A stretch of 64,000 nucleotides of DNA, from assembly GCA_951406725.2 (NCBI GenBank), contig OX597818.1, positions 3,286,001 through 3,350,000 of the forward strand, given 5' to 3'. Under the pieces are notes generated by a model. It did not search any database, was not told where the DNA came from, and saw only the letters and a list, made by a program, of their open reading frames with translations. Made by a program: the position numbers and the translations under genes. The stretch comes from Octopus vulgaris. Its lineage: Eukaryota. Below are positions 7,868 to 58,932 of this stretch, one piece after another (the stretch's first letter is position 1; each line of letters starts with the position of its first letter).

Positions 7868-8749
7868 TTTAGACTCTGTTATGCATTTAACATGGTTCTC
7901 AATTCATTTTCCATAACTTTTCTTCTTTGAACACATTATATCGTTTGTCTTTTTGTTTTCATACTTTATTCCTAACGAATATTTTTAGTGTTTTTATCAG
8001 TAACTAAAGATACTGCTAACTCTATAAATTTGTCCAAGTTAATCCTGTACAGATTCCAGATAGTAATCCACCAAGAATTTATATAAACAGGGTTATATGG
8101 ATTCAGTGTAATACCTTCCTTTTTTGTTGAATATGATGTATCTAAGTAAAAATTTCTTTTACTTCAATGTCATCTGATATTCTGAAACAAAGAAACAGTA
8201 TGAGATATAGAGAACAGCTAAAAAGTAGAGATTCAACAGTGGACATTTACTACAATACCATATTGATAAATTGTAAATATAAATCATTGGCAAAACATTT
8301 GAACTTTACTCTGTAAGTAGTTATTAAAATTACATCATACATTCTTATATGAAGTCTACATATTTACCAGCTACAGCTACACCTTCATATTGTGTGAAAT
8401 TATATATGTTAAACCAAGAAAATTGGAGGATAACATTCTTTTATACCCAGAAACATCATTTGTTGTTGCTCAAATTTAAGTCAGTTCTGAGTGAGTAGGC
8501 CTATCATCAAAGTAATTTTGTTTTCAGGGTTGCTACAAATTACACAAGATCAAACAAATAGAAACAAATTGAAGAATGAGAAAAACAATGTTAACAAAAA
8601 TGTACTTGATATAAATCTTGTTCAGTGAATGACAGTTGATCCTTTTGATACCAACCAGCCTGAGTTTGCCCCTGATTCTATGATACAAGCAGACAAATTT
8701 AAAGTGAACAATTACACTGTCAAATAAATTTGACTGTTTCTTTCCAATG

Positions 8750-10059: not shown

Positions 10060-10170
10060 TACTTACAGTACCTAGGTTTTCTAAGCAGTTGCCCATCTAA
10101 GTACTAACTAGGATTGACATTGCTTAACATCAGTGACTAGACAAGAACCGGTGCATTCAATGTGATATAT
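10060..10170 (-). pseudogene. 5S rRNA pseudogene (degenerate, 5' end clipped)
   Basis: acttacagtacctagg...cccatctaagtactaactagg...tgcttaacatc..gactagacaagaaccggtgcattcaatgtgata matches the reverse complement of eukaryotic 5S rRNA. An oligo-T terminator (aaaaa on +, 10053-10057) follows the 3' end. Confidence 0.82.
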
Positions 10171-10179
10171 ATTATCAAA

Positions 10180-17599: not shown

Positions 17600-18740
17600 A
17601 TACGAATTTGAAGCAGCTGGAGGTATATAAACCCGTCACAGTGCTATCCTTAAAGAATACCCGGATGTCGCTTGACCAGTATTCCATAGTCAGCATATCA
17701 AGCAGGAAGTCACCCACCAAATCAAGACTCGTGGTCCACTTGTTGCTGTACGATCCCCAAGATACCACCAGATCGTCTCAAGGCCATCAAGTGAGAATGC
17801 CAGCACATGCCCGACCTCAGAATCATCTGCCCATCCAGCAGCAACTGGTCCTCACCAATACACTGCATTCTTACGAAGTCATGAACCAATTGGCGAGTTT
17901 GCAGTGATTATCAATCACTAAATACCTGCACTGTACCTGATGCATATCCTGTCCTTCTTCTACAGGACTTTTCTAGCTTGCTCCATGGAGTTTGCATATT
18001 TTCAAAGATTGACCTTGTGCGAGCTTACAATCAAATCTCTGTAGAACCTGCAGATATTCCAAAGACTGCAGTCACGACACCCTTCAGAATGTTTGAATTA
18101 CTGTGTGTGCCTTTTGGTTTATGCAATGCAGCACAAACGTTCCAACATTTTATAGACACAGTTACCAGAGGTTTGCCTTTTGTCTATGCATACATAGACG
18201 ATGTACTCGTGGCCAGTAGCTCAGACAAAGAGCATGATCAACACCTGCCCCTGCTATTCCAAAGCCTGCGTGAATATGGTATTGCTATTAACCCCAGCAA
18301 GTGTTCATTCGGAGTTGCGTCCCTTCATTTTCTCGGTCACATCATCGATAAGGATGGCGTTCACCCACTTCCCGAGAAAGTCAAAGTCATCGTGAATTTT
18401 CCACCACCCACATCTCTCTGCAAACTGGGAGAATTTCTTAGCACCTTTTTACCCCACTGTGCAGAGACAGCCCAACAGCTCACAGATTTACTACAGCAAA
18501 CAAGCAAAAATAAAAACATTGCCCTCAGTGAAGAACAACTTGCCTCTTTTGCTAACTTTAAAAAAGCGTTATCCAACGCTACCATGTTGGTGTATCCCAA
18601 ACCAGAATTCCCACTGTGTACTAATTGATGCATCCGATTCTGGAGTTGGAGGTATGCTCCAACAACTCACTGACGGTATTTGGCAACCTGTATTCTTCTA
18701 CTCCAAGGGCTTAAAACCCGCCAAGACTAAGTACATCGAC
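17600..18740 (+). mobile_element. Ty3/Gypsy pol fragment (RT and start of RNase H)
   Basis: FSKIDLVRAYNQI, PKTAVTTPF, PFGLCNAAQTFQ, YIDD and DASD in ORFs 17978-18866. Confidence 0.9.
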
Positions 18741-18744
18741 CACA

Positions 18745-21255
18745 TTCAGATAGGGTTTTTTATGTGCCCTGGCATTGACCATGTTTGGATGATGCATTTT
18801 ACATTCCATTGGAATGGGAGCCAGTCAGGGGGCACTGACCACTGCTACAATTTTGATTTTACTTAACTCAACAGGTCTTCTCAAGCATATGCATCAGGGG
18901 TTCTCTTAAATGGGCTGGACATGCAACACTGGCTACAATCTCACTTTAGCTGCTGGGTCTTCTCAATCACAGCATATCTCCAAAGGTCTCTGTCTCTGGT
19001 CATTGGCTCTGTGAGGCTCAATGTTTGAAGGCCATACTTCACCCCCCCCCCATCCCATGTCTTCCTGGGTCTGCCTATTCCACAGGTTCCTTCCACAGTT
19101 ACGGAGTGGCACTTCCTCACACAGCTGTTCTTATCCATACGTAACACATGATCATACCAGCGCAGTCGTCTCTCTTGCACACCACATTTGATGCTTCTTA
19201 TGCCCAACTTTTCTCTCAGGACACTTACACTCTGTTGTGTATGCACACTGACATTACACATCCAGCGAATCATACTAGTTTCATTTCTTTCAAGCTTACG
19301 CATGTCCTGCTGTGTAGCATGGCAGTTCATACACATGCATCATAGAGTTTACCTTTCATCCTGAGCGAGAGGCCCTTAGTTGCCAGCAGAGGTAGGAGCT
19401 CCCAGAACTTTGCCCAGGCTATTCTTATTCTAGCCATTACACTCTCAGGGCAACCACTCCCACTACAGACTTGGTTGCCTAGGTAGTGGAAGCTATTAAC
19501 TACTTCTAGTTTTTCCCCTTGGCATGTGATGGAATATTTTTACTGTACATCTTCGGTGTTTATTGCCCCTGTGCATCTGCCACACACAAAAACTATCTTC
19601 CTATGAATCCATAGCTTACACCAAGTACATCATATGGAGTTTCTACCCACACCTTTTCTACAGATCGAGCAGGGTCATCTACCTGGAGGGGTTTGTGATT
19701 TGACAGCCTTCCTACTTAATAAGACTTTGGTTTTTGCCAGGTTAACCCTAAGACCCTTTAATTCTAGACCTTGTTTCCACACCCTAAACTTCATCTCTAG
19801 TTCTGGCAGTGACTCGGCTATTAGAGCAAGGTCATCACATAGAGGAGCTCCCAGGGATAGCCTGTCTTGAATTCTTCTGTTATTGCTTGGAGGACTATAA
19901 TGAATAAGAGGGGGTAGAGGACTGATCCTTGGTGAACCCCAACTTCTACCCAGAATTCTTCACTATACTTGTTGCCAACCTTCACCTTACTGACAGCATC
20001 CCTGTACAGGGCTTGTGCAGCTCTTACCAACCACTTATCTATCCCCACTTTCCACATTGACCACCAGATAGGGGATTGGGGGACCCTATCAAAGGCTTTC
20101 TCCAAGTCAACAAAAGCTAAGTACAGAGGTTTATCTTTGGCTAGATATTTCTCCTGCAGTTGCCTTACCAGAAATATAGCATCAGTGGTGCTTCTTCCTT
20201 GCATAAAACCAAACTGCATCTCATCTAGGCTAACTCTCTCCCTAATTAGTTGGACTATGACCCCCTCTGTAGTTATTTCTATCTAAAACATCACCTTTAC
20301 TCTTGCAGCAGTTGACTATGGTGCTGCTACACCAGTCATTGGGTATGACTCCTTCATGAACTACCTGATTTACAATGCAGGTGACAAGACCATAATCCAC
20401 ATCATTTGATATTTTAAGCATCTCAGTGGTGATTCTTGATAGGCCAGGCACTTTTCCTGTCTTCATATACTTAATTGCTTTATCTACCAGGGTACTATCG
20501 ATATGAGCAGCTGGTCTCTCAATTGGGTCAACCTTTAGGAGACTCTCCTCCTCCCATTCATTCTTCACATTCAGCAGTCTTTCATAATAGCATCTCCAAG
20601 CCTCTTTCTTTGCAGAATCATTAAACGCAAAGTCACCCAATTGATAGTTATCAGGTGGCTAGCTGGCTTCCTGAAGTTGTTATTGCAGATCAGTAGGTTA
20701 TTTGCATCACAGAACTCCAGGAGCCTAGTTCCTTCTTCATTTTTTGGTATCAATTCCATGGCTCCCATGTACACCATGGAAGATACCAGGTTGCTGTCCA
20801 ACATACCCAAAGATGAGAAAATCTCCAGCCACAAAGATGAGATTATTGTCACTTGTCTTTGAGGCAGCCTGCAGAAGAATATCATAAAAGTGATCCTTCT
20901 GTTCATTTGGTAGTCTCACATGTGGAGTGTAGGTAGAGATAATTGTAGTTATACCATTCTGCAAGATTAACCTGAGTTTAAGTACTCTATCGTACACCCT
21001 CACTACCTCTATGACCTTATCCACCCATTTCTTTGTTTCTTTGTAAGAAGTATGCCCACACCCCCTATTCCATGACTATTACCTTCCCAGAAGAGTTTAT
21101 ACCTATGTGCTTTGCCTGTGAGAACTCTGGCTGAAGCTCCTTTCCATCTTACCTCTTGTATGCAGCATACATCAACACGTCTCCATTCAAGCATCTCTAC
21201 AATCTCACTAGCCCTACTTTTCAATGTGCCTACATTTACAGTGCTAATTCTGAAA
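18745..21255 (-). mobile_element. RTE-clade LINE family B, decayed (EN+RT)
   Basis: TVNVGTL..IQEVRWKG, QFGFMQGRSTTDAIF, FVDLEKAFDRV, GVHQGS and RRLRWYDHV in the minus-strand ORFs. Confidence 0.9.
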
Positions 21256-21324: not shown

Positions 21325-22420
21325 CAGTTTATTTCAAGATTTCTTGCCAATAGAAAAAGAACCAGTTTCTAACCTAGATCCAAGCCTCCTTCATTGGAAT
21401 TTCAACATCAACAACAGGGTATTTTTGTTTGTATGTATGTATGTATGTATGTATGTATGAAGCTCTTGTGTTAAAGCAAAGGCTCAGATGGAGTGGTCAT
21501 CTGGTCAGAATGAAGGATTCAAGGATGCCAAAACAACTCTTTTATGGAGAGTTAGCTAAAGGAGAACAACCTCCACATAAACCAAAAAAGAGGTATAAGG
21601 ACTTGCCGAAGGCTTTCTTAAGAGATACTTGCATCTCTCCTGACACATGGGAATGCATAGCTATTGATTGTAGCAGGTGGAGAAGGATTGTGCATGAGGG
21701 GACAGCCACGTTTGAGAAATCTCGAGTTGCACATGAGAAAGTAAGAAGGGATGTCAGGAAGGGCATCGCTGTTACACTTCCAGAAGGGAAGGGTCCTCCT
21801 TTGATTCTGACATGCAATGTCTGTGCAAGACCCTGCAGCAGTAAAGCTGGACTCATGAGTCATCTTCGTAGTCATAAAGCGAGACAGATGAGTGACAACC
21901 TGGCCACTGGTGGTGGTGTTACACACCATACTAATCATATCTGTCAGGCATGTGGAAGAGAGTGTAATTCGGCAGAAGGACTAAAACGACATGCAAAGGT
22001 ACATGAAGCCCAGTTACAACTACAGCCGGCTATTACCAGTAAAGGTTTTAGTTGCCAATTTTGTACAAGACATTGTAGATCTTTAGCTGGGCTAAAAAGT
22101 CACATTCGATCACAGCACCAGTAACAGTTAAGCTTCGTGCAATGGCCATACTCGATAACGAGGGGGCAGCCATAATAATGTATGTATGTATGTATGTACG
22201 TATGTATGTATGCATGTGTGTGCAGATTTGTATGTTTTATGTATGTATTTACATGCATATAGTTGCATATCCAGACATGCTCATATATATATTTTAAATG
22301 ATATGCTTCTGGAAAGTTTTGTAGGTTTTTACAGTTCCCATGATGGATTGCCCTTGATTCAAACCCAACTATCTAGGTCTTTGATAAATATGGGATGATC
22401 ATTGCTGGAATGAAAACGTA
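21325..22420 (-). mobile_element. 3' end of R4/Dong-like LINE (same family as 31585-33000), split by an RTE insertion
   Basis: 21325-21430 and 22230-22420 match 31595-31700 and 31750-31940. Confidence 0.7.
21460..22179 (+). mobile_element. 5'-truncated RTE LINE 3' end with three C-terminal C2H2 fingers and (TAA)n tail
   Basis: [29 protein letters not shown]; three CxxC..GL..H...H motifs; flanked by (TATG)n on both sides. Confidence 0.85.
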
Positions 22421-26394: not shown

Positions 26395-29300
26395 AAAGCC
26401 CCCTCGCCCCATGTCACACCACAGTGTGATATGGTGGGCTTTGAGGAGGCTAGGGATAGATGAGTGGCTGGTGAAAGCTGTGCAGGCCATGTACGAGACA
26501 CTGTCAGTAAGGTGAGAGTTAACCATGAGTACAACGAAAAATTTGGGGTACAGGCTCAATCCTCAGTCCCCTCCTTTTCATCATTGCCCTCCAGGCCATA
26601 ATAGAGGAATTCAAGGTAGGCAGCCTCCTGGGAACTACTATATAATGATGATCTTGCCTTCATAGCAGGTACTGTATCAGAGCTAGAAGAGAAATTCCAG
26701 GTGTAGAAGCAAAAGCTAGAATCTAACAGCCTTAAGGTTAATTTAACAAAGATCTTAGTATGCAAGAAAACAGACAGGATCCTATCCTCTTCAGGTAGGT
26801 GGCCCTATTCGATTTGTAGGAAAGGTGAAGGCAGGAACTCCATATGGTATACCTAAGAAGTGCAGTGGAAGGCTATCTAAGGAGGTAATGTTCATTTGTG
26901 GAAGATGCACAGGATCCATAAAAAGTATAGAGACTTAGTAAATTGATTCTCTCAAATGCCCTAGTGGCTCATTAGAGATAGTAGATAATTTCTGCAACCT
27001 AGGGGACCAAATTAGCAGTGAAGGAGGATGCACGGAGAGTGTGATAGCTAGAATAAGAAAAGGATGGAGGAAATTCAGAAAGCTTTTATCTGTTAGCTAT
27101 GTAGTGACGTCATGTTCCAGTGTGCGCACATGCAACGTCATTCTTCAGTGTGCGTGTGCGGAACGTCACCTTTGTAGTGACGTCATGTTCCAGTGTGCGC
27201 ACACGCAACGTCATTCTTCAGTGTGCGTGTGTGGAACGTCTTTCTTCAGTGTGCGTGTGCGGGGTTGGAACCTTCTAGAACCTTCTGGAAGCCTTTCCAT
27301 AAGGAAGTTTCCCTCATGCACATGCGCTAGAGACTGAAGAATAAATCCCATAGCGTTCCTTAATAGCGTTCGGGGATTTGAGGCACGGCGATCGAAGAGA
27401 AAGGACGTATTTTCATACGTGTGATCAACCTATTCTCCTGTCCCAGACGCTTGGGATTTAACCTATCTATTGCTGCTGAATTGTTGTAAGAATGGATACC
27501 AGTATACCATCGTGTTTCATTGTTGAATAAGAGAATAAAGAATTATATATTTCTAAACTTGCTTTTCGTTCCTGACTGGTAGTTTCTAGAAACAAAAAGA
27601 AAGGAAACCAGTTCCCTTTACAGTGGTGACCCCGAGTTCTGGTCATAGACCATAGAACACTTAACAGAAATCTAGTTTCTACCAACAGTTATAAAAGGAA
27701 CCTCTCTTATCTTCCGCAATAATGACGACGCTAACATACACCAGCAACACAGGACATTTACACCACGGACGCCTTCATCTCAACAATGCCTTTCTCTGCC
27801 GTCGTCATCACCATTGTCGTCCTTCAACTTCACGTCGTCTCCATCTTCGTCGCCAGCAACACTATGTATTTTACTACGAACTAAGCAACCACGTGCCTCA
27901 AGTCCACCACTGTCGCTTTCACCCCGTCGACCTCAACGATATGTACACAGCAACTCGCTGAAGTTTGGCTTACATGCTGTTCGTGTATACACACCAAGAT
28001 TAACAGCACAGCACTACCTGCGAGATCTTCTGTACCAATGTAACCTGGCACAGCATTGAAGCCACAACCGCTACACGACATGTGTTCAACCGGCATCTGC
28101 ACTTGTGATCCCAACTTCCTGTTACAGAATGAACTGCTATTTTGTACTTAACTACTAACTGGTAAATTAACTCCATCTTGTCTGAAATACCCTGAGAGAC
28201 TTTTCCTATGCGCTGTATTCTGTTTTGCCCGCATACACTTGTTTGTACTTCTGTCGCACACACGAACACACATAATTCATACGCCACACATGCCTTTCTC
28301 GCTTGTTTTCCATGCTCAATGTGCCCTTGTAGACACAACTCATCTCTGTAAGACCCTAGGTCGGTCACACATACATAGAGAAAGTTGTTTGTCCCTTACA
28401 ACGCGCCAGCATGCCACACGACCGAGGCATATAATCGCTCAAGCACTGGCTGGCAACCTCAGCCTTACTGCATTAATCACTGGCATATTCAATACTGTGC
28501 ACTGTATTTCAGCCTGGCAAGCCCTATTGCACTCATGCACCTCTGTTCTGCACGTGTACTCCCTTGTTTTGCAACACGTCTGCGTCAGCTCAATTCTTCT
28601 CCCGACTCAAAGAACGTCGGATGTTCACATGCACTGCGCTCATGTTTAGGCATAATTTTACCCTGTTAGACCCCTGTTGGTCACGTAATTAAGAGAAAAT
28701 TATCTGTCTCGCGCATCACTCCAGCATGCTTACACTGTCGCCCTTGCTAACCTTACTCTTTCAGCTGAAGCAATGTCTGCCTTTGAGTTACTAGCGATCT
28801 GTCTGTCAATTCCATTTCCTCTCCTGCAGCAATTGAGTTAACTGCTATTTCGCATGATCAAACATCTTTAGCGGAGTTGGATTTAACTTCGCCTAAGTTT
28901 ATCAATTGTAAGTTTGCCTACCGTCCGCTCTATTCTTTGTGACGTATCCACCGGTTCTCCTAGACAGTTAGTACCTGAGAAACATCAACGTTCTGTTTTT
29001 GATGCTCTTCATTCATTGTCACATCCAGGTATCTCTGCCACAGTTCTTCTGGCCCAATATGCGACGATCGATTACCTCTTGGGCACGCTCTTGTTTGAGG
29101 TGCCAGAGTGCTAAAGTCCATAGACACGTTCGTGCTCCACTTGGACAGTTTTCTTCTCCTGAGGCCCGTTTTCGCTATGTTCACCTTGATTTGGTTGGAC
29201 CATGGCCTGTGAGTAACGGGTTCTCATACATTTTAACTTTTATCGATCATTTCTCACGTTGGCCGGAAGCTATTCCTATTCACACATGCACCTTTGACAA

Positions 29301-31062
29301 CACCACCATTTACACATGCACCTTTATCAACACCAACATCGGCAACACCATTTTCGTCGTCGCAGCCCGCCTCGAACAAACCTTATGTTACGAGGTCAGG
29401 CAGAACTGTTCACTGGTCGAGGAAACTTTAAAAGACGATTTATATTTAACATTCTCAATTGACTTCCCAGTGACAGTTACGATACTAATTGAACTTTGTT
29501 CGTTTGAGTATTATTTTTTCTTTTCCTTTGCTGCATGCTTGTTTATATTATGGATTTTTTTTGTTTTAATTTGTCATATTGTGTGCCATTTTGGTGATTT
29601 GGTATCCACCTTATATTCTGAAGCCACTACAAGGAGTTTTGTTTCGTGCTTCCGCACTCGAGGGGGAGCCTTTGTAGTGACGTCATGTTCCAGTGTGCGC
29701 ACACGCAACGTCATTCTTCAGTGTGCGTGTGCGGAACGTCACCTTTGTAGTGACGTCATGTTCCAGTGTGCGCACACGCAACGTCATTCTTCAGTGTGCG
29801 TGTGTGGAACGTCTTTCTTCAGTGTGCGTGTGCGGGGTTGGAACCTTCTAGAACCTTCTGGAAAGGCCATAAGGAAGTTTCCCTCATGCACATGCGCTAG
29901 AGACTGAAGAATAAATCCCATAGCGTTCCTTAATAGCGTTCAGGGACTTGAGGCACGGCAATCGAAGAGAAAGGACGTATTTTCATACGTGTGATCAACC
30001 TATTCTCCTGTCCCAGACGCTTGGGATTTAACCTATCTATTGCTGCTGAATTGTTGTAAGAATGGATACCAGTATACCATCGTGTTTCATTGTTGAATAA
30101 GAGAATAAAGAATTATATATTTCTAAACTTGCTTTTCGTTCCTGACTGGTAGTTTCTAGAAACAAAAAGAAAGGAAATTGTGTTGCACCCAAGTTGCACC
30201 CCAAAAGTGTAAAGAAGCAACCAGTTCCCTTTACAGCTACGCAAGGTTTCTCCAAGTGAAAGGAATATTGCATGATGCATGTATATGGACAGCAATTCTA
30301 CATGGTAGTGAGATGTGGGCCTTAAATGCACAGGATATGTGAAGGTTAGACAGGAATGAGGTTAGTATGCAAATGTTCATGTTTGACAGAATCCTAGTGT
30401 ATTGACAGAGAAGTTAGGCATAAAAAGAATTAGATACTGTGTGCAAGAAAGAAGACTGCACTGGTTTGATCAAATGATGTGGATGGATGCTGACAGCTCC
30501 ATAAAGATGTGCTGATCTCCTAAAGTCGATGGAACACGTGGAAGTGGGAGATCCAGGAAGACATATGAAGAAGTAATGAAGAATGACCTCAGAACACTGA
30601 ACCTTTCAGGCAAGATGACAAAGAATTGGGATGCCTGATGCCTTGCTATACTCAAGAAGCCTTGTGCACTTCTGCAGAAGTGTTAAGTTAAGTCTGGTCC
30701 CCCTGGTGGAGAGGATTGACCTGTAAGAGTCCTGTACTGGTGTCACATAGCGGTGCTGGTGTCACATGGCAGTGCTGGTGCTACATGGTGGTGCTGTATT
30801 AAATTTCCTGTGCAGTATCGTGTAAAAGTGCCCTTGTGGTGTCACATAAAAGCACCCATGCAGCGCCATGTAAAAGTGTGCATGCAGTGCCATGTAAAAG
30901 CACCCAGCACACTCTTTAAAGTGGATGGTGTTAGGAAGGACATCCAGCTGTAGAAACCATGCCAAATCAGACTGGAGTCTGATGCAGCTCCCCAGCTTGC
31001 TAGTTCTGGTCAAGCCATCCAGCCTATGCCAGCATGGACAATGGACATTAAATGATGATGAT
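26395..31062 (+). mobile_element. RTE family B fragment (26395-27099 and 30236-31062) split by an LTR element
   Basis: Reading frame ARIRKGWRKFRKLLS..LLAT is continuous across the insertion; (GAT)n tail at ~31052. Confidence 0.82.
27100..30235 (+). mobile_element. Non-autonomous Gypsy-derived LTR retrotransposon with two LTRs
   Basis: TG..CA LTRs at 27100-27622 and 29673-30235, near identical. 4-bp TSD GCTA (27096-27099/30236-30239). PBS tggtgacccc (tRNA-Trp-complementary) at 27624. PPT gagggggag at 29660. Only integrase remnants inside (HPG.., HLDLVGPWP..IDHFSRWPEAIP). Confidence 0.93.
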
Positions 31063-33186: not shown

Positions 33187-33961
33187 TCAGCAAGATTCTC
33201 TATGTAAACAAGTGTCATCAAAACTATGTGTTCCTTTGTTTCTCCGTCTTTTACGACGGATTTCCCGTTGGATTTCAAAGGACTTTACCATACTGGGTGT
33301 TATATGGAAAATATTGTTGTTTTCAGAGTCACTAAATAATAAAACTCTATCTGGGCTTTCAGGAAATTTTTCAGCACTCAAACTTTCTTCAATATTATTG
33401 TCCATAGAAAGTAACTCCTTGTTTAATTTGCTGATTTCATTATAATCAAAGGTAAATACAAAATCCTGTGGGCTACTGAGGGAAAATTCTTGCATGTCAT
33501 TTGGTGAATTGTCAAAGGAATCAAATGTATCATCATCAAGAACTTTCCGTTTTTCAAATATTTTGCCATGGCGTTTCCTCATCAGCCGCATGGCACGGTC
33601 TTGGTATATGTCAATCTGTAGTAAGGCAGGTACTGATTGACTACGTTTCTTGAGCACTCTATTAACAGTATTCATTAAATTCATTGTTAGAAAATCTTCA
33701 TCACTTGATGATGTTGGGCTTGGTGGCAAGTCTGACAAGACACTACTATCATAGCTGTAATTTCTCTTAAGAATCCCAGAACTATTAAACAAAGTGTTAG
33801 AAGAGAAATCATTAAGACCCAACTGACTTGATTTTTCTTTTACCAGAATTTCATTTATGCATCTTGTCCTTCTTCGACTGTGACGAGACTGGAGCTGGCT
33901 TTTCCAGTCCAGCTCAGTTGTCTTGCTCAAATATGGTGGAGTATTTTCCATTTTCATTAAC
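33187..33961 (-). CDS. Probable host coding exon, ~256 aa from ATG at 33957, Ser/Asp-rich with basic clusters, no recognised domain
   Basis: 770-nt open frame in otherwise stop-dense AT-rich DNA, starting exactly after a strong acceptor (ccttttattttgtttcag). No TE motifs. Confidence 0.62.
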
Positions 33962-34600: not shown

Positions 34601-35316
34601 GTATGTAAAAAAACAATTAGAAAATCTATTTTAGACCGTTTTCTGTTTGGCTGCACTTTAAAATAAGTGAAAATTTTCAAATTTGGTGTATTCATGTAAT
34701 TTTTCATGCTGAATCTCAGGGTCTAATTCACTTGTTTCAGAAAAATTTCTTTAAAAAGTAATAGAGGTTTAAAGTTTCATCATTCTTACCCAGCCAGAAA
34801 ACAGGATTTGGAATTTGTCATTTTCTGTGTGACTGCATGTGTTCTCTACGCTGCGACAGTAGCATGTATTTTAATATCAAACTGTAAACAAATAAAATAT
34901 TGGCAGAATTCTGCTTTATGCATGCCATATAATCCTCAACTCTCTTCCACTCTTCATCTGACTTCCCTCTTCTTCTCTCTTCATCTAACACCTACTTCCT
35001 CTCCTCACTTCTACCCACCTCTCCTCTCCTCACTTCACTCCTACCCACCTTCTCTCTTTATTGATATTCCCTTCACCCACACCCCATTCCAACACACACC
35101 ACCCCTACTCCCACACCACTCCACACACACTAGCACTGACCACTTCCCAGCACTCACACCACATACCATCATCTGCACACCCAAACACCACCCGAGTGTC
35201 AAACTAATACACCTGCTTCTTGTTCATACACCTGTCTTCGTCTTTTGTGTTTCTATAAATTTCAAGTATATATGTGTGTGCGTGTGTGTGTGTGTATGCA
35301 TATATGCATACACACT

Positions 35317-35626
35317 GGGTGCAATGGTCCAGTGGTTAGGGCAGCGGACTCGCGGTTGTAGGATCGCAGTTTCGATTCCCAGACCAGGCATTGTGAGTGT
35401 TTATTGAGCAAAAACACCTAAAGCTCCACAAGGCTCCAGCAGGGGGTGGTGGCGATCTCTGCTGTACTCTTTCGTCATAACTTTCTCTCACTCTTTCTTC
35501 TGTTGGCCAGCACACTTAGCCAGTAGGGTGGCATCATTTGAAGGCTAAAACAATGCGAAGCGCATTGTGACCAGCGATGTGTAGCAACATCTGATAGCCT
35601 GGTCGGTCACGGTGATCACGGTGACA
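35317..35626 (+). mobile_element. tRNA-derived SINE family D
   Basis: tggtccagtggttagggc (A box) and gtttcgattccc (B box); tail tcacggtgatcacggtga. Confidence 0.78.
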
Positions 35627-36031
35627 TATATATATGCATATATATGTATATAAAAAAGATTGAATTTCATGGATCTTTTAATTGGAACTCTTAACCGCTC
35701 TTAATTTTAATACAAAAAAATTTGTACCAGTTCTCTTTCTCTCACACTTTTCTATATATATCTCACATGTATTCTATTTACATGTATTTTTATGTATATT
35801 TATATATATCTATATCTTTAAACATAATTAAATCTCAGAATGAGATTGAAACAGTAATCACTCGATAATGTAAAGTATAGAAGCCATCTTATCATGGCTA
35901 ACCACATTGGGGAGGGGGTGTTACTGTGGCTTTATAGCCCCAAGAGATCTTCGTCTCAAGCTGGCTTTAGACACAATATCAGTGTCCTTGGAGTATTTGC
36001 AAAGGGAGGCCATCCCTTCCTCGCAAGCCCG

Positions 36032-36090
36032 AGTGATACGCTCGAACTAGTTTCGGGATTGTTGTCCCTCGTCAACGGGCGGTAACCACC
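36032..36090 (-). ncRNA. Minimal type I hammerhead ribozyme (C3U variant), copy 1
   Basis: cgcccg-UUGACGA-ggga(caacaa)uccc-GAAAC-UA-GUU-cgagcg. Confidence 0.68.
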
Positions 36091-36310
36091 AGGTAGCGAT
36101 GAAAGTGAGGGCTTCTTTGCAAATCATATATAAGTTTTTCTAATGGCGTCTGCCACTGATGTCGAAAAACGAACAGTAAGCATAATTAAATCTCAGAATG
36201 AGATTGAAACAGTAATCACTCGATAATGTAAAGTATAGAAGCCATCTTATCATGGCTAACCACATTGGGGAGGGGGTGTTACTGTAGCTTTATAGCTTTC
36301 ATCGCTACCT

Positions 36311-36369
36311 GGTGGTTACCGCCCGTTGACGAGGGACAACAATCTCGAAACTAGTTCGAGCGTATCACT
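36311..36369 (+). ncRNA. Minimal type I hammerhead ribozyme (C3U variant), copy 2
   Basis: TTGACGA 36326-36332, stem II ggga/tctc, GAAAC, palindromic ACTAGT stem III, predicted GUU cleavage after 36356. Confidence 0.68.
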
Positions 36370-36668
36370 CAGGCTTGCGAGGAAGGGATGGCCTCCCTTT
36401 GCAAATACTCCAAGGACACTGATATTGTGTCTAAAGCCAGCTTGAGACGAAGATCTCTTGGGGCTATAAAGCTACAGTAACACACCCTCCCCAATGTGGT
36501 TAGCCATGATAAGATGGCTTCTATACTTTACATTATCGAGCGATTACTGTTTCAATCTCATTCTGAGATTTAATTATGCTTACTGTTTGTTTTTCGACAT
36601 CAGTGGCAGACGCCATTAGAAAAACTTATATATGATTTGCAAAGAAGCCCTCACTTTCATCGCTATCT

Positions 36669-36727
36669 GGTGGTTACCGCCCGTTGACGAGGGACAACAA
36701 TCCCGAAACTAGTTTGAGTGTATCACT
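36669..36727 (+). ncRNA. Minimal type I hammerhead ribozyme (C3U variant), copy 3
   Basis: Exactly 358 nt downstream of copy 2; two C>T changes in the 3' strand of stem I. Confidence 0.62.
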
Positions 36728-37214
36728 CGGGCTTGCAAGGAAGGGATGGCCTCTCTTTGCAAATACTCCAAGGACACTGATATTGTGTCTAAAGCCAGCT
36801 TGAGACGAAGATCTCTTGGGGCTATAAAGCTACAGTAACACCCCCTCCCCAATGTGGTTAGCCATGATAAGATGGCTTCTATACTTTACTATATCTTTAA
36901 AGATATTCATATATGTCGATATGTATTAATATACATATATACACATTTAAGTTGAATTTATAACTGTATGAGTATGCAAACTAAGTTGATTGCCTAATTT
37001 GTGTTTACATTTTTTAATTCTTATATATATATATACATTTATATATATCTGTAAATATAATATGTAACAATTATTCGGTAGTCAAGATAAAACTCTGAGT
37101 TTCGGATGCCGAGGTGGAAATCCACACCACCATCTCTTTCTTTCTTTTGTTATCTTACCGTTTTTACCAATATACATTTATATATGTGTGTGTGTGTGTG
37201 TGTATATATACATA

Positions 37215-37589: not shown

Positions 37590-38885
37590 CACTAAACCTC
37601 CTCTGATATGTTATATTTGGTGGATGAGGCAGTTTGATGTTGCTGCCTTCACCTGTGTTTCTTGCATAAACGTAGGTTCATCCAGAACTCTTAAAAGAAG
37701 ATCTAGATTTGTTTTGAAAAAGCCTATGTCCATGCCATGGAGGCCACTCAGGCTTTGTGGGAGGATATTGAAGCATTGTGGGCTTTTGAAGACCAAGCTG
37801 TTGCAGTATCTGGTACTGTATCCTGATGGCAATGTTGGGACCTTTGGTACCATGCAGTAGCGCCCCGTCCTACTGTTTGAGTAAGTGACAATGCCAAAGT
37901 TTGGAACAAGTTTCTCTAGGATTTTCCAGATGTATATTATTGCATATCTTTCCTGCCTTCTCTCCAGGGAGTAGAGCCTTAGCTCTTTCAGTCTCTCCCA
38001 ATAGCTGATATGTCACATTATATCGATCTTCTTTGTGTGGCTTCGTTGGATCGCCTTGAGTTCCATCGTTAATTTTACACTGTTGGTGACCACATCTGAG
38101 AGCAGTAATCCAGATGACTGAGAACGACTGAGGACCATCATGATTTCTTTTTCTCTTGTTTTGAAAGTTCAAAGGATCCACCTGACCAGACATTTGCACT
38201 TTATTGCCAACTTAGTAATGTCCACCTGGAAAGATGCATCGTTACTCATGTCGATGCCCAGGTCATGCACTCATTTTGATTCGGGGATTGGAATCCTTCC
38301 TGGACCAGTGTATCCTTTATGCTTTTCATTGAGCTTCCTGTGTTGGTAGTACAGGGCTTAGAATTTTTCAGCATTAAACTGCATGTTATTTTCCTCAGCC
38401 CACCTGTATATTGTGTCCAACTCACGCTGCAGATGCACAACGTCTCCAAGGTTCGGTATCCTCTGAGAGACTTTTGTATCGTCTGTATAGCTAGCTATTT
38501 GATTCGTTAGGGGCATGTCAGAGAAGGCCAATATAAATAGCAGTAGCCTCAGGACAGTGCTCTGTGGAACACCACTCATTATTTGTGTTTTCTTGGAAGT
38601 GACCACTGCTACCTGACTTCTATCTTTTAGAAAGTCATGTAACAATTCTCCAAGTTCTCCAAATATGCCAAGATTTTGGAACTTGTGACAAATCATACCA
38701 TGGTCAACTTTGTCAATGGCTTTTGCAAAATTGAGGTATATTACATCCGCATTTGAGTTGTTGAGCGGCTGCTTTAGCACTCAGTTGTAATGCTGCAAGG
38801 GCTCTGTCAGGCAGCTTCTACCTGTCAAAAACCATGCTGGATGTCAGTCAGCAAGTCACTCTCTTCAAGCAATGCAATTAATTTC
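37590..38885 (-). mobile_element. CR1-group LINE 3' half, decayed (same family as 61436-64000)
   Basis: YLNFAKAIDKVDHG, SGVPQS, YTDD, MQFNAEKF. Confidence 0.87.
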
Positions 38886-39709: not shown

Positions 39710-42700
39710 ATCATCATCATCATCATCCTCATCATCGTTTAACGTCCGCTTTCCATGCTAGCATAGGTTGGATGATTTGACTGAGGACTGGCGAACCAGA
39801 TGACTGCACCAGGCTCCAATCTGATCAGGCAGAGTTTCTACAGCTGGATGCCCTTCCTAACGCCAACCACTCTGTGAGTGTAGTGGGTGCTTTTACGTGC
39901 CACCGGCGGTACTGGCAATGGCCACTCAGGCGGTACTGGCCACTCAGGCGGTACTGGCAATGGCCACGCTCAAATGGTGTTTTTTTACGTGCCACCTGCA
40001 CAGGAGCCAGTCTAGTGTCACTGGCAATGACCTTGCTTGAATAATTTTTCACGCGCCACCAGCATGAGGGCCAGTAAGGTGACACTGGTAACGATCACGC
40101 TCAAATGGTGCTTTTTACGTGCCACCTTCACGGAAGCCTCAACAGGTCTTTGCAAGCAGAGTTTAGTGTCCAATGAAGGAAAGGTACGCATTAGTGGGCT
40201 GGTTACACCCCTGGCATAGGCCACAAGGTTATGGTCTCACTTGGCTTACCGGGTTTTGTCAAGCACACCATATTTCCAAAGGTCTCGGCCACTAGTCATT
40301 TCGTTGGTGAGGCCTAATTTTCGAAGGTCAGGCTTCACCACTTCATCCCAGTTTTCCTGGGTCTACCTCTCCCATAGGTTCCCTCAACTGCTAGGGTGTG
40401 GCACTTTTTACACACCTATCCTCATCCATTCTCACCACATGACCATACCAGCACAGTCGTCTCTCTTGCACACCACATCTAATGTTTCTTAGCTCCAACT
40501 TTTATCTCAAGGTACTTACACTCTGTCGAGTATGCACACTGACATTACACATCCATCGGATCATACTGCCTTCATTCCTTGTGAGCTTACACATGTCCTC
40601 AGCAGTCATGGCCCATGTTTCACTGCCATGTAGCATAGCTGTTCATACACATGCATCATACAGTCTACCTTTTAATCTGAGTGAGAGGCCCTTTGTCACC
40701 AGCAAAGGTTAGAGCTCTCTGAACTTTGCCCTGGCTATTCTCATTCTAGCAGCTACACTTTCAGCGCACCCTCCTCCGCTACTGACTTGGTCACCTAGGT
40801 AACAGAAACTATCAACTACTTCTAGTTTTCCTCCCTGGAATGTGGCGGTTGTTCTCTGCACATTTTCAGAATCTATTGCTCCTGAGCATCTGCCACATAC
40901 AAAAACTATCTTCCTAGTTAGCCTTCCTTTGACATTGCTGCACCTCTTATGTGTCCATAGCTTGCACTGGGTACATCTTATAGAGTTTCTATCTATGCCT
41001 TTTCTACAGATTGAGCAGGGCCATCTACTTAAAGGGATTTGTGGTTTGCCTGCCTTCCTACTTATAAGGACTTTGGTTTTAGCTTGGTTGACTCTAAGGC
41101 CCTTCGATTCTAGTCCTTGTTTCCACATCTGAAGCTTCTCCTCTAGTTCTGATAATGACTCAGCAATTAGAGCAAGGTCATCAGCATAGAGGAGCTCTCA
41201 GGGGCATTCTGTCTTGAATTGATAAATAGGAGGGGGCTGTGGACTGAACTTTGGTGGACCCCTACCTCTACACGGAATTCTTCACTGTACTCGTTGCCCA
41301 CCCTCACCTTACTGACAGCGTCCCTGTACATGGCTTGCACAGCTCTCACTAACCATTCATCTATCCCTAGTTTCCTCATTGGCCACCTGATAAGGGATTG
41401 GGGGACCCTGTCAAAGGCTTTCTCCATGTCAACGAAAGCCAGGTACAGAGGTTTATCTTTGGCTAGGTATTTCTCCGGCAGCTGTCTTACCAGAAATATA
41501 GCATCAGTGGTGCTGTTCCCTGGCACGAAACCAAACTGCATCTCATCTAAACTGACTTTCTCCTTAATTAGTTGGGCTATGGCCCTCTCCGTAATCTTAA
41601 TTACCTGATCCAACAACTTGATACCTCTGTAATTATTTGTATCTGAAGCATCACCTTTACCTTTGTAGCAGTTGACTATAGTGCTGCTACACCAGTCATT
41701 AGGCATTAGTCCTTCGTGTATCACCTGGTTAACTATACAGGTGACTAGGCTATAGCCAACACTACCAGATATTTTGAGCATCTCTGCAGTGATTCCTGAT
41801 GGGCTGGGGCTTTCCCTGTCTTCATACTCTAATTTTTTTATCTACCAAGGTACTGTCAACTCGGATAACTGGTCACTCTGTTGGGTCGGCATTTGGCAGA
41901 CTCTCTTTCTCTCATTCATTCATTTTATTTAAGACCCTTTCGTAGCGACGTCTCCAAACCTCTCTCTTTGCAGCTTCATTTAGTGCAACATCACGATTCT
42001 CTCTCACACACTGTCTTGCAACACAAAATACCTCAAGTCTTTGGTTCTCACGGTGCAGAACATTGGCAAATTTGTTCTTATCTGCTTCCCCTCTGGCTAA
42101 ATAAACCTGTCTCCTAGCTTCCCTACTGGCAGCCTGATACAATTCACTGCTACCACCATTTCTCCAGTCCTTCCAAGCCTGTTTCTTTTCTCTAATAGCC
42201 CTGTCACAACATTGTTCCACCACCACGTTATTTTGGGTTGAGAGGGGACTTTGCATCATCCACAGATCTGGTCAGTGGCCCTCAGCAGGTTGCCCCGTAG
42301 AAACCTCCAGTTGTCTTCTACATCATGTGAAGCTATATCCCCTTCTATTTCATCAAAGGCTTCGAGTAATATGAACGGTAGGCGACTAGGTGACTAGCAG
42401 GTTTCCTGAAGTTAGTATTGCAAACCATAAGATCATTTGCATTGCAGAACTCCAGCAGTCTGGTTAACCTCATTATTGCGGGAACCAAAACCGTAGCCTC
42501 CATTCGTCAACGAGGTAGTCTGCAAGAGGGTGTCATAGAATCAGTCTTTCTGTCCATCGGGTAGCCCCAGCTGAGGGGCATAGGCCGAGATAATAGTTGC
42601 TAACCCATGATGAAGCACTAATCTAATCTTAAGTATTCTACTACGCATACTCTGATTACCTCGATTACCTTATCCACCCATTTCTCCACAAGAAGTATAC

Positions 42701-54953: not shown

Positions 54954-57900
54954 TAATAATAATGTTCGTCCTTCGGTTCGAAGATGACCAACTGACATCA
55001 TCTGATGGAACTGCCGCCATGAGACTGGAGGTGGCTGGTGAGGCCAATACGGGCAAGGAAGCCCCTCCCACAGGTGGGGCAGAAGTGGGTAGGGGCAGTG
55101 CTACTGGTGCAGGCGGCTCTGACTTTACGCATCTGACGTTTCTGCTCCGCTGACCGAATCCGTCCCTCCTCGGCTGTCCCTGCTCCCACGGTGATTGCGC
55201 TGCGCCAGGATGAGCGGTTGGCAGCAAGTGTCTCCCAGGTCTCTGTTCCGATGGAGAAGTCTTTGAGAGAGACCTTGAGACTATCCTTGTAGCGCTTTTT
55301 CTGCCCTCCGACTTTGCGCCTGCCCTGGCCGAGTTCACCGTAGAAGAGCTGTTTTGGGATGCGAGTGTCGGACATGCGGGAGACGTGGCCCGCCCATCTC
55401 AGCTGGGCCTTGCGCATGATTGTGATGGTGCTAGGGAGATCTGCCTGCTTCAGAACTTCCGTGTCTGGGACTTTGTCCTGCCAGCGGATGTGAAGGAGAT
55501 TCCGAAGACACCTGAGATGGAAGTGGTTTATCTGGCGCTCGTGCCTTCGGTAAGCAGTCCACGTCTCGCAGCCGTATAGTAGGGTGGTAAGCACGACTGC
55601 CCGGTAGACTTTCAGCTTGGTGTTGAGGCTGATTCCTCTCCGCTCCCAGACTTTCTTTCGCAGTCTCCCAAACGCGCTGCTTGCCTTGGAGATTCTGTTG
55701 ATGGTTTCAGCATCTATGTTGGCATTGCAGGAGAGAGTGCTGCCCAGGTAGGTGAAGTTTTCCACCACTCGTAGGATCCGTCCGTTCACCCTTATCTGAG
55801 GCTCATGGTATTGTTTGCCGGGGGCTGGCTGAAACATCACTTCAGTTTTCTTTGCACTGATGGTGAGACCGAAGTTGTCACAGGCTGATGAGAACCTGTC
55901 CATCTCGAGCTGCATCTCCTGCTCATCGATTGCATTAAGGGCGCAGTCGTCAGCAAAGAGAAAGTCTCTGACGACTGTCTCCCTCACCTTTGTGACAGCC
56001 TGCAATCTCCTGGAGTTGAAAAGTTTCCCGTCTGTCCTGTACTTGATGTTGATACCGGACTTGCAGTCCCTAAAGGCGTCGGACATCATTGCCGAGAACA
56101 TGATGCTGAACAGTGTTGGGGCCAGGACACAGCCCTGCCTGACTCCGTTGGTCACCTGGAAGGCTTCAGATGAGTCGCCGTCTTCAAGGATTCTGGCTGT
56201 CATTCCGTCGTGGAACTGGCGGACAATTGCAATAAATTTGCTGGGGCAACCAAATTTTCCCATGACCTTCCATAGTCCCTCCCGACTGACTGTATCAAAG
56301 GCCTTGGTGAGGTCAACAAAGGTCATGCAGAGGTCAAGGTGCTGCTCCATGCATTTCTCCTGGAGCTGGCGGGTGGCGAATATCATGTCAGTGGTCCCTC
56401 GACCCGCACGGAAGCCACACTGGCTCTCAGGGAGAAGGCCTTGCTCCAAGTGTTCCAGAAGGCGGTCAAGCAGGACCCGGGCCAGGATCTTGCCTGCTAT
56501 GGACAAGAGGGAAATACCTCGGTGGTTGTCGCAGGACTGCCGATCTCCTTTCCGCTTATAAATGTGAACGATTGTTGCATCCCGGAAATCTTGAGGGAGT
56601 TGTTCCCTGTCCCACATCGACTGGAACAGGCTGGTGAGCTGACTGATCATGGTGGGGCCGCCCGACTTGAACACCTCTGCAGGGATGGCGTCAGAGCCTG
56701 GAGCTTTGCCGGTGGACATTTTTTTGATGGCTCTGCTCACTTCCTCGACTGCAGGGGGAACAGCCAACTCGTGGTTTGTCGGCACCTGGGGGAGTCGTGC
56801 GATGGCTTCCTCGTTGATCTGAGCTGGTCGGTTGAGCACGATGTTGAAGTGCTCCGCCCATCTCTCCAGGATCAGCCTCTTGTTAGTCAGGAGTGAGGTT
56901 CCATCTGAGCTGAGCAGGGGGGTTGATCCAAAGGAGAACTGCGGTCCATAGACAGCTTTCAGCGCCTCGTAGAATTTCTTGGTGTCGTGTTTGTCTGCGT
57001 ATCCCTGAATCTCATCCGCCTTGGCGCTTAACCATGCGTCTTGCATGAGGCGGAGTTTAGCCTGGACTGTGCTGCGAATGTTGTTGAAAGCGGCCTTCTT
57101 TGCCGTGCAGGTGGTGTCATTTTGGTGAGCCCGCAGCAGACGGCGTTTCTCTTCCAGGAGCTTTTGGATTTCCTGGTCGTTTTCGTCGAACCAGTCCTGG
57201 TGGTTCCTCGTAATTTGGCCCAGAGTTTCAAGGGCGATGGAATGAACCGTGTCCCTGAATGATTCCCACTGCTCATCGATGCTGGACTGGTCACTCCGAA
57301 TGTCCAACAGCTTACTGTCCATACGTGACTGAAGATCTTGTGCAGTCAGCTGGTTCTTTAATTTCGTGATGTTAAGCTTCCTCGTCACTTTCTGACCCTG
57401 TGGTCTTCTCTTAGGTCGGATGTAGAAATCCATCCTGGAGATGATGAGGCGATGGTCCGTCCAGCAGTCAGCTCCGCACATGGCTTTGACCAGTCTCACG
57501 TCCCGCCTGTCTTTCGCCCTGACGATGACGTAATCTATCAGATGCCAGTGTTTGGAGCGTGGATGCATCCATGATGTCTTGTTGCGTGTTGGCAGACGGA
57601 ACAAGGTGTTGGCGATGGTAAGATCATGAGAGGCACACGCACGCAGGAGGAGCTGTCCGTTGCTGTTGCACTTTCCGATTCCTTGCTTTCCCAGTACGCG
57701 ATGCCAGGCTTGGTGGTCAGTCCCGACACGGGCGTTAAAATCCCCAAGGAGGATGAGCTTCCCAGGCTGGGCTGACGTGATGAGGGAGTCGAGTTCCTCA
57801 TAGAACCTGTCCTTAACTTCTTCAGGGTTGGTCATGGTGGGGGCGTAAGCACTGATGATGGTCGCACTAGTCTTGTTTCCAAGTGGGAGCTGCATCTTCA

Positions 57901-58932
57901 TCAGCCGATCGTTGATACCCTCGGGGGGGCTTTCCAGTTTCCGCACGTGTACTGACTTAATGGCAAAACCAACACCAGCCTCACGACGCTCTTCGCTGCT
58001 GCGACCACTCCAAAAGAAAGTGTAGCCGCCGCCTGTCTCTGTCAGCTGGCCTTTGTCCGCAAGGCGGGTCTCGCTCAGTGCTGCAATATCGACACTGTAT
58101 CGGCTCAGTTCTCTGGCCACCAGGGCAGTTCGTCTCTCTGGTCTGTCCGCTTTGGTGTTGTCAAGCAGAGTTCTCACGTTCCAAGTTGCGAAAGTGAGCA
58201 CCTTTGTTTGTTTTCTTCTTTCTTTGTTTCGACCGCTTGGAAAGGATCCCCGCCAGCCGCGGTTTGCTGACCAGGGTGAGGTGAGGCAGGCTATGTTTAG
58301 GGCAACCTTTTCTAGCCCCGTCCTCATGCTGGGGAGGCGAGCAGAGCGATCCTGAAGAGGGCTGCTCGGTCACTCAGGAGGCTGCTGGACTCCACTGCTG
58401 CCTCAGTTCAGTGAGGGGCGACCACATGTCCTGAGCCGCCTGTGTGTGGGTTCACGACTGCAACTCCCAGTGTATCCTCACCTGCTACTTCGCCGTTTCC
58501 CCATCGCCACAGGACTTTGGGATGGTGTCATGGCGTCATGATGTCGTGACATGCGCGTGACTTGGATTATAGTGAGGGTGACTTGCGCAGGATCAGCCTC
58601 ACTCTCTCGTCCTGGTGCGCCGGATCCAGTGGCAAGACAAAGTCAAGACGACTGGGGGTAGACCAAGATGCAGGAGCTGCCGGAAGGTGGCACGCATGGC
58701 GCAATCCAACCGCCTTAGGGGCTCCACTCCGGATTTTGGATGGCCATTGACTCATGAGAGAGTTCCTCTGCCCTTTGACAGGTTTTGTTTTTAGTCCTGC
58801 TGGGTGTCCAAATCACCCACCTCACCAAGAAATCTTGGTAGGGTTGCCAGTTTAGTCGCCAACGACCCGACCATGTAACAGGTTGTACTGGGTTACATGT
58901 TACCAGTAGCTCCAAGCGGAGACCTGACATGA
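54954..58932 (-). mobile_element. Full-length intact RTE (BovB-like) LINE
   Basis: 10-bp TSD acactcatac (54944-54953/58933-58942), (ATT)n tail, ~600-nt 5' UTR, single intact ORF. Confidence 0.96.
54998..58327 (-). CDS. RTE polyprotein: APE endonuclease + reverse transcriptase + C-terminal C2H2 finger, 1109 aa
   Basis: [27 protein letters not shown]; [35 protein letters not shown]; [13 protein letters not shown]. Confidence 0.96.

What the first reader, a model, noticed from the sequence alone, without database searches (positions are those of the whole stretch)
35810..36901. Retrozyme-like system: a TSD-flanked, permuted, inverted multimer of a 358-nt hammerhead RNA
Seen: a perfect 13-bp TSD (ctatatctttaaa) encloses 1066 bp made only of one 358-bp non-coding unit. 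It runs 1.3 copies forward, switches strand at ~36296, then runs 1.65 copies reverse, with the two parts starting and ending at different points of the unit. Each unit has a type I hammerhead (UUGACGA/GAAAC/GUU) with a palindromic ACUAGU stem III. The two same-strand ribozymes are exactly 358 nt apart (predicted cuts after 36356 and 36714). Known: metazoan non-LTR retrozymes are tandem few-hundred-nt units with minimal hammerheads that act as dimers and yield circular RNAs, and inversions are typical of Penelope or twin-primed insertions. Inference: this is a cDNA of a circular or multimeric RNA copied more than once around by a borrowed RT, i.e. a candidate cephalopod retrozyme family with a C3U core variant. 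Copies differ by only a few transitions, so it is recent. The locus could also make ~450 bp of dsRNA.
Basis: partly seen in the sequence, partly recalled or inferred. Interest (0 to 1): 0.85.

Follow-up and report, generated by a model that had tools for sequence, protein, structure and literature searches.

The report
Octopus retrozyme with Penelope-type insertion ends
An octopus genome carries a 1.1-kb insertion made of about three copies of a 358-base non-coding repeat, each with a hammerhead-ribozyme motif, and its ends match the pattern left by Penelope-type jumping genes, so it is likely a known kind of hitch-hiking repeat (a retrozyme) copied by such an element; self-cutting and RNA circles are untested.

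Summary
An exact 13-bp duplication encloses 1066 bp made only of one 358-bp non-coding unit, in two arms that diverge from a 5'-5' junction at 36296. There are three type I hammerhead motifs; the two on the same strand are 358 nt apart. The neighbouring gene is Octopus-like. That 47-nt one-sided 'tail', the inverted 5'-truncated arm, the AT-rich target and the 13-bp duplication are the published anatomy of Penelope-like element (PLE) insertions. Public runs show an abundant family in at least two organisms, with other inverted copies and similar end points. The hammerhead is canonical rather than minimal, probably dimer-dependent, and has a weakened core (U3.G8, U17) that appears family-wide. 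Verdict: a new, apparently unreported cephalopod member of the animal non-LTR retrozymes, likely mobilised in trans by a PLE. Circle versus tandem-transcript template is undecided; cleavage, circles and the helper PLE are not shown. The scan noted similar anatomy before on other animal DNA.

The parts
35810..35822 (.). Left copy of the 13-bp target-site duplication
   Evidence: Exact match to 36889-36901, only two occurrences in the window; reconstructed target neighbourhood 82% A+T over 113 bases
35823..36296 (-). Left (inverted) arm, 474 bp: unit positions 168-358 then 1-283 in hammerhead sense; its 3' end is the left boundary
35823..35869 (-). 47-nt 'tail' (unit 237-283) present at the left end only; holds a 7-bp hairpin
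   Evidence: matches 16 of 18 letters of an inverted loose end seen in two runs
36023..36093 (-). Type I hammerhead motif, left arm (least mutated copy); predicted cut between 36045 and 36044
   Evidence: Rfam HH9 E=2.8e-5, below gathering score
36296..36296 (.). Head-to-head (5'-5') inversion junction, unit 168 against unit 1, one shared base
36296..36889 (+). Right arm, 594 bp: unit 1-358 then 1-236; its 3' end is the right boundary
36308..36378 (+). Type I hammerhead motif R1; predicted cut after 36356
   Evidence: Rfam HH9 E=6.2e-5
36357..36714 (+). Predicted 358-nt cut-to-cut monomer, non-coding (longest ATG frame 41 codons), 43.6% G+C
   Evidence: (fold z=-2.8)
36666..36736 (+). Type I hammerhead motif R2 (two private C-to-T changes in stem I); predicted cut after 36714
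   Evidence: Rfam HH9 E=1.3e-3
36889..36901 (.). Right copy of the target-site duplication (its first base is also unit position 236)

Best explanation
This is one insertion of an abundant, non-coding, hammerhead-bearing 358-nt repeat family (a non-LTR retrozyme) that was likely copied into AT-rich DNA in trans by the reverse transcriptase-endonuclease of a Penelope-like element. Inferred steps: the PLE protein nicked both strands 13 nt apart and primed cDNA at two internal sites of the repeat RNA, unit 236 and unit 283. Each cDNA ran past one unit length (1.66 and 1.32 units) because the template was a multimer or a circle with no ORF. The two truncated 5' ends were then joined head-to-head at 36296. 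The hammerheads are predicted to cut slowly and as a dimer; cutting is probably not needed for insertion.
For: Shown in the sequence: exact TSD, divergent arms, both outer ends 3' ends 47 nt apart in the unit, no poly(A) or simple-repeat tail, no ORF. Published PLE anatomy: inverted 5'-truncated copy plus a 30-40-bp tail on one end, head-to-head arrangement with 8-10-bp TSDs and trans-mobilisation through pLTR sequences, and two internal RT start sites that define the tail, with AT-rich targets, both strands nicked and extended, and the start sites downstream of the hammerhead as here. Family evidence (four runs laid on one unit plus flank): 1185, 1107 and 1052 contigs laid in the three large runs; summed depth over the unit 5.8e3-7.9e5 against 42-102 in the most distal flank bin; depth falls about 5- to 11-fold from unit 254-270 to 288-304, across the tail end; 12 and 14 contigs leave the unit a few bases after position 236 into A+T-rich sequence; one contig has an independent opposite-strand joint (unit 342 with 201); 5 and 4 contigs in two runs carry an inverted piece of the tail end. 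One diverged contig (14 other letters) bridges 283/284 with 41 and 55 letters on its sides, so other copies run head-to-tail. Both arms share letters at unit 148, 156 and 355 that are not the majority in those runs, as expected from one template. Octopus vulgaris has 190 PLE families, 31 with recent insertions.
Against: No autonomous PLE sharing this unit was found: none of the 32 window ORFs scanned is a PLE protein, no genome is held, and the collections scanned hold no eukaryote genomes. The tail (47 nt) and TSD (13 bp) are somewhat longer than the 30-40 nt and 8-10 bp in the passages read. Only 24 of 321 loose ends and 32 of 3441 contig pieces were shown; none of the 24 is a forward-strand end at 283, so recurrence of that end rests on the depth step and the inverted loose end. 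Summed contig depth is no copy number and is distorted by divergence and by the edges of the reference. This locus's own junction and an empty allele were not among the joints listed. Three of four bases beyond the left end match the unit, which twin priming would also predict.
Confidence: 0.75

Rival explanations
1. The unit is simply the pLTR of a coding PLE, and this copy is an ORF-less by-product (tandem pLTRs) rather than a self-standing retrozyme family.
For: The end anatomy is that of PLEs. Of 57 Xenopus retrozyme families, 24 matched known TEs, 21 of the 22 TEs being PLEs, so the two classes grade into each other. Most loose ends were not shown.
Against: Reading 5'-ward, both arms pass into another unit, not into an ORF. 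The hammerhead has a 4-bp helix II and loop-loop contact elements typical of retrozymes, unlike the minimal hammerheads of metazoan PLEs. None of the 24 loose ends shown marks a common 5' continuation at unit 284.
Confidence: 0.13
2. A LINE (for example the RTE-type element in this window) copied a multimeric or circular RNA by target-primed reverse transcription with twin priming, giving the inversion.
For: Twin priming also gives a head-to-head junction inside one TSD (recalled knowledge of L1, no call). An EN-RT ORF of 1123 codons lies at 54998-58369. Three of four bases of possible microhomology lie at the left end.
Against: No poly(A) or repeat tail at either end. No similarity between the unit and the 1-kb 3' region of that LINE (best E=1.8). 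Strict twin priming needs the second priming site next to the first cDNA's stop; here the offset is 75 nt one way or a 69-nt overlap the other. Other copies end near the same points.
Confidence: 0.08
3. The inversion is an assembly or fold-back artefact, or a later DNA-level rearrangement of a tandem repeat.
For: The junction of this locus was not listed among the joints in four runs. PLE-type structures are hard to assemble.
Against: The arms are asymmetric, carry 11 differing sites and lie within one exact TSD. An independent opposite-strand joint of the family occurs in a public run.
Confidence: 0.04

Closest known systems
Metazoan non-LTR retrozymes (Cervera & de la Pena 2020, PMC7229834; e.g. 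Mytilus 350-390 bp, axolotl 330/350 bp)
   Same: Non-coding 150-450-bp tandem unit, G+C under 50%, canonical type I hammerhead per unit, TSD longer than 4 bp, structured monomer; helix III like axolotl HHR_Amex1 (one pair capped by a palindromic tetraloop, dimer-acting).
   Different: Cephalopod host; U3.G8 core, U17 cut site and a C.A mismatch in stem I; head-to-head inverted arms with a tail, which the parts of those papers that I read do not describe for retrozymes; circles and cleavage not shown here.
Insertions of EN+ Penelope-like elements (Arkhipova et al. 2013 PMC3846280; Craig et al. 2021; Frangieh et al. 2024 PMC11167929)
   Same: Inverted 5'-truncated arm, head-to-head junction, one-sided tail, AT-rich target, TSD, hammerhead upstream of two 3' end points.
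   Different: No RT-EN ORF; more than one unit on both arms; canonical rather than minimal hammerhead; tail 47 nt.
Retrozymes as non-autonomous PLE derivatives (Li, Clavereau & Pollet 2026, bioRxiv 10.64898/2026.07.22.740005)
   Same: Same proposed dependence on PLEs; meets their criterion of two consecutive units with complete hammerhead motifs, apart from the U3 variant.
   Different: Their evidence is co-occurrence and pLTR phylogeny in 31 vertebrates and 4 invertebrates (3 insects, 1 coral; no mollusc); this locus adds insertion-end anatomy. 8 of their 9 tested dimers did not cleave.

Membership tests
Non-LTR retrozyme | Head-to-tail unit of about 150-450 bp, G+C under 50% | tested here: met
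   358 bp, 43.6% G+C, 1.66 and 1.32 units; another copy bridges 283/284
Non-LTR retrozyme | Type I hammerhead motif in each unit, at least two in tandem | tested here: met
   Three motifs, two in tandem 358 nt apart; core is the U3.G8 variant and scores are below Rfam's gathering score
Non-LTR retrozyme | No protein-coding frame | tested here: met
   Longest ATG frame 41 codons, longest stop-to-stop frame 55, over the circularised unit on both strands
Non-LTR retrozyme | Dispersed multi-copy family; TSD longer than 4 bp | tested here: met
   13-bp TSD; over 1000 contigs per large run, of mixed identity, with varied flanks
Non-LTR retrozyme | Self-cleavage of the transcript | not testable with these tools
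   Needs transcription in vitro; U3.G8, U17 and the weak helix III predict low monomer activity (inference; U17 effect recalled)
Non-LTR retrozyme | Accumulates as monomeric circular RNA | tested here: inconclusive
   Only contigs were available; they cannot show strand, ends or circles
PLE-mediated insertion | Inverted 5'-truncated copy joined head-to-head | tested here: met
   a second case
PLE-mediated insertion | 30-40-bp tail at one end only | tested here: met
   Outer 3' ends at unit 236 and 283, a 47-nt difference, slightly longer than published
PLE-mediated insertion | AT-rich target | tested here: met
   82% A+T over 113 flanking bases
PLE-mediated insertion | An autonomous PLE in the genome shares the cis-acting end sequence | not testable with these tools
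   No genome held; no PLE ORF among 32 window ORFs scanned
Autonomous EN+ PLE | RT plus GIY-YIG ORF between pLTRs | tested here: not met
   The insertion is wholly unit sequence
LINE twin-primed insertion | 3' poly(A)/repeat tail or LINE-like 3' end | tested here: not met
Plant LTR retrozyme | Type III hammerhead in LTRs, 4-bp TSD | tested here: not met
   Type I topology, 13-bp TSD

The most novel reading that the evidence does not exclude
The locus is a single-molecule record of a PLE protein priming twice, 47 nt apart, on one 358-nt circular RNA and rolling past the unit on both target strands. The family has kept a deliberately weak hammerhead (U3.G8, U17) that cuts only as a dimer or with the PLE protein, so circles persist as templates. 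That would be direct evidence that PLEs mobilise animal retrozyme circles, and would define a 50-nt cis signal that loads foreign circular RNA onto a PLE enzyme.
Probability: 0.2. Interest if true: 0.65.

Novelty: new member of a known kind. Interest (0 to 1): 0.4.

Why it matters
Which autonomous element mobilises animal retrozymes has been argued from co-occurrence and phylogeny. A retrozyme multimer with the PLE tail signature names two exact priming sites that can be tested with a purified PLE protein or by a simple genome count. It also extends the family to cephalopods; my literature searches listed no such report, but two supplements that could hold one were not seen. Each head-to-head copy is a ready-made 400-bp duplex if transcribed, in animals known for heavy A-to-I editing (recalled). 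The kind of element is known, so the gain is confirmatory.

Tried and rejected
No whole genome is held, so copy number, end clustering, empty site and helper PLE could not be searched directly. Exact-pattern scans found 0 matches in viral contigs, metagenome contigs and genome contigs; these collections are not expected to hold octopus DNA. Run search: no RNA holder listed. One run guessed to be RNA laid 46 contigs over the unit, but it may hold DNA, its profile resembles the DNA runs and contigs cannot show circles: no evidence either way on expression. The 'goes back 358' joint only shows that unit 236 and 237 are adjacent in other copies, because the reference was permuted there; it is not proof of a circle. 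Circle versus linear multimer: if both arms began in one unit of a heterogeneous array, the terminal units should share letters against the inner ones. Only unit 50 and 76 fit; 50 is private to one copy, and 76 is a CpG site that could have changed back, so the test is undecided. Uneven change between arms (2 versus 9) is not significant (p=0.13 two-sided). Rfam at gathering score finds no hammerhead in the window. The minimum-energy fold of the monomer does not form the active core, and both strands fold better than shuffles (z=-2.8 and -3.4), so folding does not pick out the sense strand. No tRNA gene in the window and no Pol III boxes in the unit. Nearby RT fragments are LINE- or LTR-type, not PLE (typed by my reading of the motifs). 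No earlier scan note matches this sequence or this genome. The Lunse et al. 2017 paper is not held and the supplement of PMC7229834 could not be read.

Full report
Observation. The 13-mer CTATATCTTTAAA occurs exactly twice in the window, at 35810 and 36889, and cannot be extended. By chance, 38 of 20000 random position pairs at this distance share any 13-mer in 33-nt flanks. The 1066 bp between the copies map completely onto one 358-bp unit, numbered here from 36296. In hammerhead sense the right arm is unit 1-358 plus 1-236 on the + strand (36296-36889, 1.66 units). The left arm is unit 168-358 plus 1-283 on the - strand (36296 to 35823, 1.32 units). The arms share base 36296. The copies differ at 11 sites, 10 of them transitions and 4 at CpG. 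The unit has no other copy in the window and no frame longer than 55 codons.

Hammerhead. Rfam finds none at gathering score but three HH9 matches below it (E 2.8e-5 to 1.3e-3). A relaxed scan of the whole window finds the same three and no others. The motif has a 6-position helix I with one C.A mismatch, a distal helix with the loop-1 elements of HH9, a 4-bp helix II with a 6-nt loop, and a palindromic helix III that can pair between two motifs (duplex -7.2 kcal/mol). This is a canonical type I hammerhead like axolotl HHR_Amex1, which needs a dimer (PMC7229834), not the minimal PLE type (PMC4209133). The core reads U3 with G8 and cuts after GUU. In four public runs no other letter was listed at U3 or at the C.A mismatch (40 variant rows shown, 7 not shown), while C17 and A8 were listed, mostly as minority letters (C17 led in one run). 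The variant core therefore appears family-wide. A U3.G8 core has been reported from halophiles (PMC7151607 passage), and U3-A8 is a known covariation. That U17 slows cleavage is recalled, not looked up. Activity is open: 8 of 9 Xenopus retrozyme dimers did not cleave, and a PLE hammerhead cut only with its protein.

Host. The ORF about 1.9 kb to the left is 91% identical to an Octopus bimaculoides protein and 63% to an Argonauta protein (5 hits among 330 candidates), so the cephalopod reading holds. Of 70 ORFs of 120 codons or more, 32 were scanned; they gave LINE- and LTR-type RT pieces and zinc-finger proteins, and no PLE protein.

What the ends say. Both outer ends are 3' ends, at unit 236 and 283, and the junction joins two 5' ends. 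PLE insertions are described with an inverted 5'-truncated copy and a 30-40-bp tail at one end (Craig et al. preprint passages). They are mostly head-to-head, with 8-10-bp TSDs, and pLTR sequences suffice for mobilisation in trans (PMC3846280 passages). Purified Poseidon protein nicks and extends both strands at AT-rich sites and starts reverse transcription at two internal sites that bound the tail, downstream of the hammerhead, without needing cleavage (PMC11167929, parts 1-2 of 4). This locus has the same order (hammerhead, first end, 47-nt tail, second end) and an 82% A+T target.

Family evidence. Twenty of 24 listed runs, from five coded organisms, hold 33-57% of the sampled words. Four were laid on one unit plus the right flank. 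The three large runs laid 1185, 1107 and 1052 contigs, with summed depth far above the distal flank, peaking at unit 168-235 and falling about 5- to 11-fold across the tail end. In two runs 12 and 14 contigs leave the unit just after position 236. One contig shows a different inversion (unit 342 with 201). Five and four contigs in two runs carry the reverse complement of the tail end joined to unit 173; this piece matches the window's left end at 16 of 18 letters, against 11 for the next best place in the unit. One diverged contig bridges 283/284 by the tool's 31-letter rule. Limits: depth is no copy number; only 24 of 321 loose ends and 32 of 3441 pieces were shown; none of the shown loose ends is a forward end at 283; this locus's own junction and an empty allele were not listed.

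Mechanism. Shown: the anatomy, the abundance of the family, and other inverted copies. Inferred: PLE nicking 13 nt apart, priming at 236 and 283, copying past unit length, and end-joining at 36296. Both arms share letters that are not the majority in the runs (unit 148, 156, 355), which fits one template. The right arm crosses two cut sites and the left arm one, so the template was either a ligated circle or an uncleaved multimer; the variant pattern cannot tell these apart. I put the circle at about 0.4 given the PLE model. If transcribed through, the locus could form a 427-bp duplex (418 pairs); transcription is not shown.

Comparison and novelty. It meets the sequence-level features of animal non-LTR retrozymes (PMC7229834, parts 2-4 of 6); cleavage and circles are untested. 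It works like a PLE insertion but is not an autonomous PLE. The PLE-retrozyme link was proposed in 2020 and supported in 2026 by co-occurrence and phylogeny (preprint parts 1-3 of 5). Four searches listed no cephalopod retrozyme, and a 2026 O. vulgaris repeat annotation does not mention ribozymes in its text or supplement, though the unit may already sit in its library as a PLE family. The supplements of PMC7229834, PMC4209133 and the 2026 preprint were not seen and may list further species. Earlier notes of this scan describe similar anatomy in other animals; I did not check them and they are not support. Verdict: real, a new member of a known kind, with a useful mechanistic signature; interest 0.4.

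Noticed in passing
public runs laid, at window 36826 (unit 173): In two runs a 17-nt inverted piece of the tail is joined to unit 173, and summed depth rises about 1.5- to 2-fold at unit 168-184. This may be a short, very abundant derivative that lacks the hammerhead. The window's left arm also starts at unit 168, just before a TATAAA at unit 170-175.
   Followed up: partly
window 54998-58369 (-): Uninterrupted 1123-codon frame with endonuclease and RT domains and a C-terminal zinc-finger-like motif, an apparently intact LINE (RTE-type by my recalled reading).
   Followed up: partly
window 33187-33957 (-): ORF for a 256-aa protein without Pfam match, conserved in Octopus bimaculoides (91%) and Argonauta (63%); the insertion lies about 1.9 kb upstream of its start.
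   Followed up: partly
window 35313-35625 (+): Stretch with tRNA-like A and B boxes that looks like a SINE (read by eye); single copy in the window, ending about 190 bp before the insertion.
   Followed up: no
window 10060-10179 (-): Decayed 5S rRNA-like sequence, 48.6 bits, possibly a pseudogene or 5S-derived SINE.
   Followed up: no
window 6377-7903 (-) and 21378-22124 (+): C2H2 zinc-finger frames, the first a long tandem array.
   Followed up: no
window 40709-41841 (-), 19821-20282 (-), 38358-38780 (-), 17885-18628 (+), 28972-29907 (+): Broken RT and integrase-zinc-finger fragments of LINE and LTR retrotransposons; 40709-41197 also matches a PHD finger.
   Followed up: no
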